Shown here piece after piece: positions 34,501 through 42,691 of a DNA stretch of 64,000 nt. Both the position numbers and the translations under genes were made by a program. This stretch comes from Octopus vulgaris. Lineage: Eukaryota. How positions within the stretch are numbered: position 1 is the stretch's first letter; every line of letters begins with the position of its first letter. The stretch lies in NCBI GenBank assembly GCA_951406725.2, contig OX597831.1:6324001-6388000 (forward strand), in the 5' to 3' direction. The notes under the pieces were generated by a model. That model worked only from the letters and a program-made list of their open reading frames with translations, was not told the DNA's origin and did not search any database.

Positions 34501-37500
34501 GTTCGGTCCCACTGTGTGGCACCTTGGGCAAGTGTCTTCTGCTATAGCCTCGGGCCCACCAAAGCCTCATGAGTGGATTTGGCAGATGGAAACTTAAAAA
34601 GAAGCCTGTCGTATATATATATGTATGTGTGTGTGTGTATGTTTGTGTGTCTGTGTTTGTCTCCCCAACATCGCTTGACAACTGATGGTGGTGTGTTTAC
34701 GTCCCCATAACTTACCGGTTTGGCAAAAGTGACCGATAAAATAAGTACTAGGTTTACAAAGAATAAGTCCTGGGGGGCGATTTGCTCGACTAAAGGTGGT
34801 GCTCCAGCATGGCCACAGTCAAATGACTGAAACAAGCAAAAGAGTATATATCATATTTTAAAAAATGAATTGCTGTTAAAAATATAATACTACTGAAAAG
34901 AGAAACTTACACAAACAAGTGGCGTTTGTTGACCATAATTTGTTTGATAAACATGTGAGTGTTCTCTCTCCTTCAAGAACATATGGATATGGACAGCTTA
35001 CATTTACTTTGGTACCAACATGGATGTTATAATTACTCAGTCGTAATATGTGTGCATTCTCTTCAGTTATAATTTGTGGGTTTTCTGTCAGATTGTTCAG
35101 TGGAGGGCAGCCATCTGAAAGAGAAAAATATTTTGAAATTAAACAAATCTCTCTATATATATAAATGGCAAAATGTCTGTGTGTGTGTTTGTGTGTGTCT
35201 GTCCTTTATACAAATCCACAATTTTTCAGTTAGAGGGCTCGCACATTCTATGGTCATTCAAAACCATCCAAGGGTGGTTGTGCACATCTTTACATTTCCC
35301 CAGTCACCCCGCAAAGCCATTAAAAAATCAATAGAAGTGACTTTTTTGTGAATTTTCTATCCAAAACCCAATGAAAATGCCCGAAACTTGATACGCCAAT
35401 TGAAAGCTTGCTAGCTGTATGTGATTGGTCGGAGATTTGGACAGCACTCGCATGTATGTGCGCACGCACGCAGCTGTATATGCATGCACTAGCACTATGA
35501 CCTGGCGTTGCTGGGTCATAGTGCTAGTACATTATATATTATAAATTTCCAAGACACTTAGTTATTAGTGAGGATTTTCTAAAACTTTGAATTTATTTCT
35601 AAAAAATTTGCAAAGCACACACTTTGATACTTTTTGCAGCACACAAAAGCGCTGTGGTGCCCTGTTTATGAATCGATTTCATGAAGCATGGACGTTTTGA
35701 AGTATGTAGTGTCTCAACACTTAACAACTGATGTGGGTAGTTTATTCCATGCTTCAGCAATTCTGAGCAGGAAAAAAATGTTTCCAAAAGTCATGGGTGC
35801 TGTGTTGTTTTTTGATTTTATAAGCATGCTCGCGACTCGCGAGTTTTTGTCATATGGAATTCAAAAAGGTGCCCAAGGTTATTGTTGGAAAGATGGTGGA
35901 TAATCTTGTGGGTGTCAACCAAATCAGTTGCCAAATGACTGAGCTTCAACGTATCCATGCCCAGGGAAGCAAGACGCTCAGAGAATGGTAAGATATCTGA
36001 AGGCGGGTATTTGTTTCGTTTCATGTTTCTGAACAGTTTCCTGGAGATTTATATGCCGAGTAAGATGGGAGTTCCAGACTGGTGATGCAAATTCCAAATG
36101 TGGACATACCACTGTCATATACAGTTTTAAATAGATAGCTGGAGAGTGCTAAACTAAATTAATCGCCCGGTTTAATTCCATCATCTGGTCCTTGTGTGAC
36201 CCCAGATGGGGCTAATTCTGTTGCAAGATTTGGACCAGATCTCCAGCTTAAGGATATCTCCCTCTCTCTCTCCCACCAGTCTCGGAGATCCTAAAAAGGG
36301 TCATGGACATCGCTCCCTCCACCTTGCCCCAAATAAAAAGTGAAAAAATAGCAAAACCAAAGAAAAAGTACGGCCAAATAAACAACTGCAACAACTACTA
36401 CTACTACTACTACTACTACTACTACTACTACTACTCGCTCACTTTTTGATATTTTGCTAACGCCTTTCTGTGTAATTATTTTTCAAGCTCTCGAAAGAGA
36501 TTACTATTGTGTTGATTAATGTTTTATCAGTGAAATGCCATTGTTAAGATCAAGAGTTCAGAGCAAAATACCATCGTCTCCATTACTGGTTCACAACGAA
36601 ATACTCTTGCTTTCTGTTAATGGTTTATCATCAAATACCGCCGTCAAGACCAGCCGTTCATTACTTTGCCAAGAACATTATTATCGTATACTTAAATTTC
36701 GTATCAAATTAGAGAATTGTAGTGTGATGGAGGAAAAGGACAACAGAAAAAGAAGCAAACGGGAGAAAGAAATACAAAAGGCCTTACCTGTTGACCTCGG
36801 AGAAATGAGCGGCCGCTCTCACGTATTAAACACGTCTTGTATCTCCGCCGTCTTTGCTCGCACTGACCCCACGTGCTTCCAGCTCACACATGTCCTCTGC
36901 CTGTCACCGGCCCCTGCAAGCCTTACTTCCGTCCACCTCATCTGCAATCCCCTCCACCAACACCACATAGCTCCATCACAGCCCATAACACCGCTAACAC
37001 CACAAGAATATTTATCACTTGTATCAATATTTTCTTTTTATCAACCACACAGTTATTTAATGCTGGGTTAAGCTACCATAGTCTTCGACATTTACGATAT
37101 GACACTTCAAAACTACAGAATATTTCTGTTACGCTCTTGTTAATCAACTTCCCTCATTATAAACTAATTTACACAGTTAGATAGTTGATATTTATTTCTA
37201 TCGTGGATATTACAGAAACCTTTATAGATTCTATTAAGCTAAACAAAACATTCGATAAATTGTCGGAGATTTATCCCAGAAATTCAGAATATGAAATCCA
37301 ATCATGGAAATCTTAGCAGAATATAGAAACATGGCTTCAACGTAAATTTGGTTTCCTGGACGGCAGACACGAAATAAAAGAGAATAGAATTCTTCACTAT
37401 TGAGGTGCTTCCGTATATTCATGCCAGTTTAGTCTACATCAAATTGTTTAAATTAAGGTCTTTTGATGGCTTCGATAAGCAACTATTAAATAATGCTGCT

Positions 37501-42691: not shown

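What the first reader, a model, noticed from the sequence alone, without database searches (positions are those of the whole stretch)
36674..41029. Intronic inverted duplication that would pair on both sides of, and loop out, an exon-like segment
Seen: 37004-37435 is repeated inverted at 40560-40991 with very few mismatches. The copy then continues (40992-41029) as the complement of 36674-36711, skipping exactly the 292-nt GC-rich segment 36712-37003, with 'attct' microhomology at the join. Both arms lie in the inferred intron 1 of the Sushi-TM gene. The skipped segment carries a strong donor (CAG|GTAAGG at 36788/36787). Inference: in the pre-mRNA a ~470-bp duplex would close around this segment and present it as a loop. 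That could control its splicing and recruit ADAR, and long flanking dsRNA is known to drive heavy A-to-I editing in coleoids. The arm sequence resembles none of the repeats elsewhere in the window. Alternatives are a recent duplicated promoter with the exon deleted, or an assembly artefact.
Basis: partly seen in the sequence, partly recalled or inferred. Interest (0 to 1): 0.72.

Follow-up and report, generated by a model that had tools for sequence, protein, structure and literature searches.

The report
Solo LTR inside inverted intron duplication
In an octopus intron, a 474-base stretch is copied backwards 3 kb away, and the 'looped-out exon' missing from the copy is the left-over end (solo LTR) of a common retrotransposon, likely skipped when a DNA break was patched, so this is likely ordinary transposon and repair debris rather than a splicing switch.

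Summary
The inverted repeat is real: 36674-36711 plus 37004-37439 recur inverted at 40556-41029 with 6 mismatches in 474 bases. Only these two copies were found in G000. Both arms lie in one intron (42671-35116) of a minus-strand Sushi-TM gene.

The skipped segment is not an exon. The family gave 466 candidates and has two-LTR parents with pol genes; the donor is a family motif (27 of 44 copies).

The right arm is the derived copy: it cuts a Helitron-like element at the foot of its 3' hairpin. The LTR looks older (7.6% from its nearest relative) than the arms (1.3% apart). So the copy likely slipped across the LTR between the two target-site repeats during repair; later LTR insertion plus gene conversion is the main rival.

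An RNA contig joins exon 1 directly to the Sushi exon. The duplex folds in silico; editing is essentially untested. Ordinary, low interest. Side finding: the LTR family's primer site matches the 5' end of tRNA-Phe.

The parts
36718..37004 (-). Solo LTR, 287 bp, TG..CA ends; its sense strand is the minus strand, the same as the host gene
   Evidence: 466 candidates, 40 scored, ends match sharply. Orientation comes from the pol ORFs and polypurine tract of two-LTR parents L034 and L035.
36713..36717 (+). Target-site duplication AGAAT, left copy
37005..37009 (+). Target-site duplication AGAAT, right copy
36782..36790 (-). Donor-like CAG|GTAAGG inside the LTR; a family motif, no use seen in RNA contigs
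   Evidence: 27 of 44 copies carry CAGGTAAG
36674..36711 (+). Short part of the original (template) arm, outside the LTR
   Evidence: the flank 36445-36673 matches only itself in G000
37005..37439 (+). Long part of the original arm; low-copy AT-rich intron DNA with no protein family
40556..41029 (-). Derived inverted copy of 36674-36711 plus 37004-37439, without the LTR
39989..40555 (+). Non-autonomous Helitron-like element (A|TC start, internal deletion near 40066), cut at the first base of its 3' hairpin; about 30 bp of its end are missing
   Evidence: 1585 candidates, 40 scored; ends compared with 5 copies
35116..42671 (-). Intron of the Sushi-TM gene that holds both arms (7.56 kb, phase 1)
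   Evidence: the spliced join is seen in RNA run X12
42672..42690 (-). Coding end of the ATG exon (MFQEDI)
34912..35115 (-). Sushi-domain exon

Best explanation
The skipped segment is a solo LTR with its target-site duplication, and the distal arm is an inverted copy of neighbouring intron DNA that was likely written in by error-prone, template-switching repair, which likely slipped across the LTR. SHOWN: LTR identity; target-site duplication; position in one intron; the copy cuts a Helitron-like element at the foot of its 3' hairpin; the copy lacks the LTR. INFERRED steps: (1) the LTR and the Helitron-like element were already in place. (2) Synthesis stalled or broke at the hairpin (40555) and jumped to the opposite strand 3.1 kb away (37439), with only 2-3 nt of microhomology. 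(3) It copied to the first base of the LTR (37004), then re-paired on the second AGAAT with a terminal T:G mispair; this explains the A-for-G base at the join. (4) It copied 38 more bases and returned at 41030, losing at least about 30 bp. The RNA consequence is likely incidental: a predicted ~470-bp intronic duplex that ADAR would probably edit non-specifically and that is removed with the intron.
For: LTR identity: 21 of 32 other solo copies have an exact 5-bp TSD, 6 have one mismatch, 2 have a 7-bp TSD, 3 have none. Two-LTR parents of 4.2 kb carry their own 5-bp TSDs and RNase H and integrase hits; their relatives carry protease, RT, RNase H and rve domains. Direction of copying: the right arm truncates a family with 1585 candidates; 4 of 5 fetched copies run on through hairpin and end; both left flanks match only themselves. 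Order of events: the nearest of 43 other LTR copies differs by 7.6%, the terminal branch is 0.05, and the central 131 bp match no scored copy above 89% (86% or less over most of the length). Arms older than the LTR and never converted would show 19-43 mismatches; at most 7 are seen, Poisson P <= 0.002. The base at the join equals the LTR's last base. The arm-specific alleles persist across organisms: left alleles in X2, X7, X17 and right alleles in X3, X8, so recent conversion has not erased them. Splicing: the X12 contig joins exon 1 to the Sushi exon.
Against: 4 of 5 long-arm mismatches lie in the distal 91 bp (P = 0.016 for either end, 0.11 for any window, chosen after the fact). The short arm looks more diverged, 2/39 vs 5/436 (Fisher P = 0.11). 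Both patterns fit an older duplication with a central conversion tract. A near-precise skip at a 5-bp repeat should be rare (inference). The DNA fold does not pair the two LTR ends, so no structure was found that would bring the TSDs together. Only the best 40 of 466 LTR candidates were scored, so a young sibling copy could have been missed. No outgroup sequence was available.
Confidence: 0.58

Rival explanations
1. The inverted copy came first, perhaps as filler DNA captured when the Helitron-like element inserted or broke. The LTR then inserted into the left arm, so the right arm is simply the empty site. Gene conversion between the arms later reset their similarity.
For: It needs no precise LTR skip. 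Mismatches cluster at the distal end and the short arm is more diverged. The Helitron-like copy (7.3-8.7% from 5 relatives) and the LTR (7.6%) are of similar age. At 37165 both reference arms have T while contigs of X2, X3 and X7 show C, which could be concerted change.
Against: It needs an independent G/A change at the join that happens to match the LTR's last base, and conversion right up to the LTR edge. The diagnostic arm alleles survive in several organisms. The 37165 signal can come from collapsed contigs choosing one branch.
Confidence: 0.3
2. One reading: whatever its origin, the duplex is now functional. It presents or silences the LTR's donor or promoter, or it recruits ADAR to the transcript.
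For: The duplex is predicted and the donor is unpaired in the loop. The LTR is in the same orientation as the gene. The arrangement is shared by runs labelled as three organisms. Squid editing outside neural recoding falls mostly in introns, 3' UTRs and repeats (PMC9068888, passages).
Against: No good acceptor was found. The donor is a family motif. The one exon join printed from RNA skips the intron. The three organisms differ by only about 1% here, so sharing is not evidence of conservation. Other inverted repeat pairs exist in the same intron, for example 37612-37730 vs 42164-42278 at 87%.
Confidence: 0.07
3. The right arm was copied from an allele that lacked a still-polymorphic LTR.
For: It gives an empty site without excision or conversion.
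Against: An empty allele should differ near the site by about twice the LTR's age, yet the 122 bp next to the LTR are identical. No contig joins the left flank to the empty junction: the shorter side is only 30, 30 and 38 letters (contigs drop rare variants).
Confidence: 0.04
4. Assembly artefact.
For: None found.
Against: The arms differ at 6 sites. Both allele sets and both junction types occur in other runs. Contig depth over the arm is about twice the flank in X3 (68.8 vs 35.7) and X7 (9.6 vs 3.7) (depth is only a hint). The spacing and orientation in those runs were not seen directly.
Confidence: 0.01

Closest known systems
Solo LTR of an LTR retrotransposon with Gypsy/BEL-type domain order
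   Same: TG..CA ends, 5-bp TSD, two-LTR parents with a polypurine tract and RT, RNase H, integrase in that order. The general features are as stated in PMC12440569 (Introduction read).
   Different: The primer site matches tRNA-Phe nt 1-12, not a tRNA 3' end. Some insertions are palindromic LTR dimers. Superfamily was not placed on a tree.
Templated or filler-DNA insertion at a transposon break (SDSA filler; FoSTeS/MMBIR, the latter recalled)
   Same: Nearby template, loss of DNA at the receiving site, breakpoint inside a DNA transposon. Filler insertions with deletions are described in PMC4423477 (passages), the Helitron filler model in PMC6544945 (passages), and extra variants near breakpoints in PMC4937565 (abstract).
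   Different: At 474 bp it is longer than the rice fillers (1-123 bp). It is inverted and has an internal skip that removes a whole LTR to within one base.
Intronic inverted-repeat dsRNA edited by ADAR (inverted Alu pairs; repeat-directed editing in squid)
   Same: Long near-perfect duplex predicted inside one intron. Repeat and intron editing is common in squid (PMC9068888, passages).
   Different: The arms are low-copy DNA, not repeat-family copies. Editing was not shown.
Exon controlled by long-range RNA pairing (recalled class)
   Same: A donor-like motif lies in a loop closed by helices on both sides.
   Different: The looped segment is an LTR with no good acceptor, no inclusion seen, and no deep conservation shown.

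Membership tests
Solo LTR (LTR retrotransposon) | 5'-TG...CA-3' termini | tested here: met
   36718-37004
Solo LTR (LTR retrotransposon) | 4-6 bp target-site duplication | tested here: met
   AGAAT on both sides; 21 of 32 other solo copies exact, 6 more with one mismatch
Solo LTR (LTR retrotransposon) | Same sequence found as both LTRs of full-length elements with pol and a polypurine tract | tested here: met
   L034 and L035, 4.2 kb, TSDs TATTA and GAGAC; RNase H-like hits above cut-off, rve below cut-off at E 0.0024; RT domain on relatives
Ty3/Gypsy (Metaviridae) | Integrase after RT and RNase H | tested here: met
   L035 minus strand: RNase H ORF then integrase ORF; this order is shared with BEL
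Ty3/Gypsy (Metaviridae) | RT phylogeny within Metaviridae | not tested
   No reference tree was built; PDB hits were only weak, to MMLV RT (E 0.22)
Canonical LTR retrotransposon priming | Primer site complementary to a tRNA 3' end | tested here: not met
   The 12 nt after the 5' LTR match tRNA-Phe nt 1-12: 12/12 in 2 loci, 11/12 in 4; L025 scored 3/12 as printed because it was read one base off
Troyka / Kuafuorterviruses | CG..CG ends and 3-bp TSD | tested here: not met
   TG..CA ends and 5-bp TSD here; definition from PMC12440569
Helitron (neighbour 39989-40555) | 5' TC after host A | tested here: met
   4 of 5 fetched copies (the fifth is truncated) and the window
Helitron (neighbour 39989-40555) | Hairpin near the 3' end | tested here: met
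   Stem and loop in L048, L049, L050; a different fold in L051; absent in the window because the arm starts there
Helitron (neighbour 39989-40555) | 3' CTRR end | tested here: inconclusive
   Three copies end CTA and one GTA, before an AT run
Helitron (neighbour 39989-40555) | Autonomous Rep-helicase partner | not tested
   No search was made
Templated insertion by template switching | Nearby template and loss of DNA at the receiving site | tested here: met
   Template 3.1 kb away; about 30 bp of the element's end missing
Templated insertion by template switching | Microhomology at junctions | tested here: inconclusive
   5 nt at the internal skip; only 2-3 nt at 40555/40556; the outer junction cannot be judged without the original site
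Structure-regulated cassette exon | Duplex on both sides within one transcribed intron | tested here: met
   In silico only; intron confirmed
Structure-regulated cassette exon | Usable 3' splice site upstream of the donor | tested here: not met
   8 YAG candidates, pyrimidine share 0.35-0.55; a crude score, no trained model was available
Structure-regulated cassette exon | Inclusion in mRNA | tested here: inconclusive
   The skipping form is seen in X12; only 2 of 4 RNA runs cover the Sushi exon; contigs drop rare forms
ADAR-edited intronic dsRNA | A-to-G clusters in RNA against matched DNA | not testable with these tools
   Only contigs were offered

The most novel reading that the evidence does not exclude
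A chance repair event built a long inverted arm that now clamps a same-sense solo LTR from both sides in the pre-mRNA, and it has been kept because it silences the LTR's cryptic donor or promoter or draws ADAR to this transcript: a transposon suppressor made from host intron DNA.
Probability: 0.07. Interest if true: 0.6.

Novelty: new member of a known kind. Interest (0 to 1): 0.17.

Why it matters
As it stands it matters little: solo LTRs, filler-type insertions at transposon breaks and intronic inverted repeats are all known kinds. It is a tidy case in which an LTR-filled site and its empty form sit 3 kb apart, so one outgroup genome would show whether an LTR can be skipped almost exactly during repair copying. 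It is also a low-copy, uniquely mappable duplex, handy for measuring non-specific editing in an octopus. The side finding may deserve its own look: a widespread marine LTR lineage whose primer site matches the 5' end of tRNA-Phe and which also inserts palindromic LTR dimers.

Tried and rejected
Arm as a high-copy transposon: rejected (2 matches). Arm as decayed coding sequence: six frames gave no Pfam hit below E 0.06. The whole 36674-41029 as one element with long terminal inverted repeats: rejected; the inside is a patchwork of older repeats at 73-95% identity, the right arm cuts an older element, and the 3-nt AAG on both outer sides may be chance. Known RNA family: 17 Rfam matches, all below gathering score and none in the arms or the LTR. 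Neighbour as a MITE (my note): revised to Helitron-like. Three LTR copies on C12 as one full-length element: rejected, they are separate copies. Troyka: rejected. Pairing of LTR ends in single-stranded DNA as the cause of the skip: not in the lowest-energy fold. RNA: no holder is on record as RNA. In four runs guessed to be RNA there was no joint from the LTR donor, the arm was mostly uncovered, and one 262-nt contig of depth 2.7 over 37238-37499 showed no T>C change; none of this is evidence for or against editing. No related genomes are held. Earlier findings of the scan: none. Literature: searches listed no paper that by title or abstract start describes this LTR family or a tRNA-Phe 5'-end primer site; searches listed none on LTR skipping in a templated copy. 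The library is limited, and Repbase entries and supplements were not seen.

Full report
1. Observation. The repeat is as described. 37004-37435 pairs with 40991-40560 (4 mismatches in 432), 36674-36711 pairs with 41029-40992 (1 in 38), and the gap is 36712-37003. The match runs on to 37439/40556 with one more mismatch, giving 6 in 474 (1.3%). The arm has two matches in the 2.8-Gb genome G000. DNA contigs of four other runs were laid on 35900-38300. In X2, X3 and X7 (labelled organisms A, B, C) one contig runs from the left flank into the segment (36444-36768), and another shows the 36711-37004 skip with only 30-38 letters on its short side, so it does not reach the left flank. X8 has no cover there but carries right-arm alleles at 37349, 37363 and 37381. 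An assembly artefact is therefore unlikely, although spacing and orientation were seen only in the assembly.

2. Gene context. The Sushi exon is 100% identical to proteins named from Octopus species. Their exons map to the minus strand from 35115 down to 13352. The N-terminal MFQEDI lies in an exon with its donor at 42672/42671. Both arms lie in this 7.56-kb intron. In run X12 (guessed RNA) a 1166-nt contig joins that exon directly to the Sushi exon (loose end at 35116).

3. The skipped segment is a solo LTR. It gave 466 candidates; 40 were scored and gave 42 matches, most with the same sharp ends. The element is 36718-37004, starts TG, ends CA and is flanked by AGAAT on both sides. I took all copies in the loci fetched around these matches, dropping the window's own loci and five duplicate loci, which left 43 other copies. 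Eleven are part of larger structures. Of the 32 solo copies, 21 have an exact 5-bp TSD, 6 have one mismatch, 2 have a 7-bp TSD and 3 have none. L034 and L035 are 4.2-kb elements with two LTRs, their own 5-bp TSDs and a purine tract before the 3' LTR. Their frames hit RNase H-like families above cut-off and rve below cut-off; relatives in many marine invertebrates carry protease, RT, RNase H and integrase domains. The element's sense is the window's minus strand.

4. The right arm is the derived copy. The DNA just inside it belongs to a family with 1585 candidates. Its copies start A|TC, carry a short microsatellite and end with a hairpin about 11 nt before the 3' end, like non-autonomous Helitrons (features as in PMC6544945, passages). 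The window copy (39989-40555) stops at the first base of that hairpin and lacks about 30 bp. The flanks of the left arm match only themselves. The missing end was not found next to either arm.

5. Order of events. The LTR differs by 7.6% from its nearest sampled relative (median 11.5%), and 13 of its 287 bases are shared by at most 10% of other copies. Its terminal branch is 0.05. A second search with its central 131 bp found no close sibling among 40 of 117 candidates. If the LTR had inserted after the duplication with no later exchange, 19-43 arm mismatches would be expected; at most 7 are seen. So either the copy is younger and skipped the LTR, or conversion reset the arms. For the skip: the base before the surviving AGAAT is A, the LTR's last base, not the G of the empty site, which a slip with a terminal T:G mispair would leave (inference); and arm-specific alleles persist across organisms. 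For conversion: mismatches cluster distally (P 0.016 to 0.11), the short arm looks more diverged (P 0.11), and the LTR ends do not pair in the DNA fold. Distal clustering also fits error-prone synthesis near a breakpoint (PMC4937565, abstract only), although 2 of the 5 long-arm differences are CpG decay in the left arm. I put the skip at about 0.58 and conversion at about 0.30.

6. RNA. The minus-strand fold of 36640-41060 pairs 429 of 432 and 37 of 38 arm bases; the LTR folds on itself and its donor is unpaired. This geometry follows from any insertion present in one arm only. Eight YAG acceptors within about 300 nt upstream of the donor have pyrimidine shares of 0.35-0.55, and those that keep the frame have 0.35-0.40. 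Only contigs were available, so rare splicing and editing could not be measured. In squid, non-neural editing falls mainly in introns, 3' UTRs and repeats (PMC9068888, passages), so some editing is likely but unremarkable. Other inverted pairs lie in the same intron.

7. Comparison. It works like a filler or templated insertion at a transposon break (PMC4423477, passages; FoSTeS/MMBIR recalled), next to an ordinary solo LTR. It is not Troyka (PMC12440569, passages and Introduction; PMC11673190, passages). Membership in Gypsy rather than BEL was not tested by phylogeny. No supplements were read; a description of this LTR family could lie in Repbase or in supplements I did not see.

8. Side finding. 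The 12 nt right after the 5' LTR are complementary to nt 1-12 of tRNA-Phe(GAA): 12 of 12 in two loci, 11 of 12 in four, and one more locus was read one base off. I recalled the tRNA first and then checked it in G000. L025 and L026 are head-to-head LTR dimers with a 5-bp TSD around the whole dimer. Priming by a 5' tRNA fragment is an inference; internal tRNA priming by copia is recalled, not checked.

9. Verdict. Observation confirmed; the exon-loop reading is mostly not supported. New member of known kinds; interest 0.17.

Noticed in passing
L030, L031, L034, L035, L041, L025, L026 (directly after the 5' LTR): The LTR family's primer-binding site is complementary to nt 1-12 of tRNA-Phe(GAA), not to a tRNA 3' end, with no spacer. 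In L030, L031, L034 and L041 the next bases are complementary to the LTR's own 5' part, and an A run usually follows. This suggests priming by a 5' tRNA fragment.
   Followed up: partly
L025:4762-5336 (G000:C5) and L026:4536-5102 (G000:C4): Head-to-head palindromic LTR dimers (LTR, primer site, A run, inverted partial LTR) with a 5-bp TSD around the whole dimer; apparently integrated fold-back products.
   Followed up: partly
L023, L024, L028, L032, L038; L018, L021; L034, L035: LTR variants: a form 12 bp shorter at the 5' end, mostly with its own TSD; two copies with 7-bp TSDs; two-LTR elements whose LTRs differ by 3.4% and 9.0%.
   Followed up: partly
window 36711/37004 junction, run X2: The LTR-free junction contig has about half the depth of the left-flank contig (21.3 vs 43.3), unlike X3 (43.8 vs 35.7). 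The right arm may be heterozygous in that animal; contig depth is a weak measure.
   Followed up: no
window 41030-41043: Nine bases after the right arm, five more bases (41039-41043) continue the template (36669-36673); possibly a short extra switch, possibly chance.
   Followed up: no
window 13352-42690, minus strand: The Sushi-TM protein starts only 6 residues before the Sushi domain, with no evident signal peptide by eye, and its cytoplasmic exons are alternatively used among database isoforms.
   Followed up: no
window 37562-37730, 42159-42278, 42561-42596, 33282-33787: A short repeat family with internal inverted repeats, including inverted pairs inside the same intron; it gives the sub-threshold miRNA-like Rfam hits.
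   Followed up: no
window about 5600-9214, plus strand: Exons that look like the C-terminal part of a tropomodulin (label recalled, not searched).
   Followed up: no
window 57067-58338 and 61818-62291, minus strand: A 424-codon Cys-rich open frame and an upstream exon that look like a chitin-binding (LPMO-like) protein (label recalled, not searched).
   Followed up: no
G000:C18:30147732-30157146: About 46 matches to the tRNA-Phe 5' motif at 200-bp spacing, likely a tandem tRNA-Phe array (these copies were not scanned).
   Followed up: no
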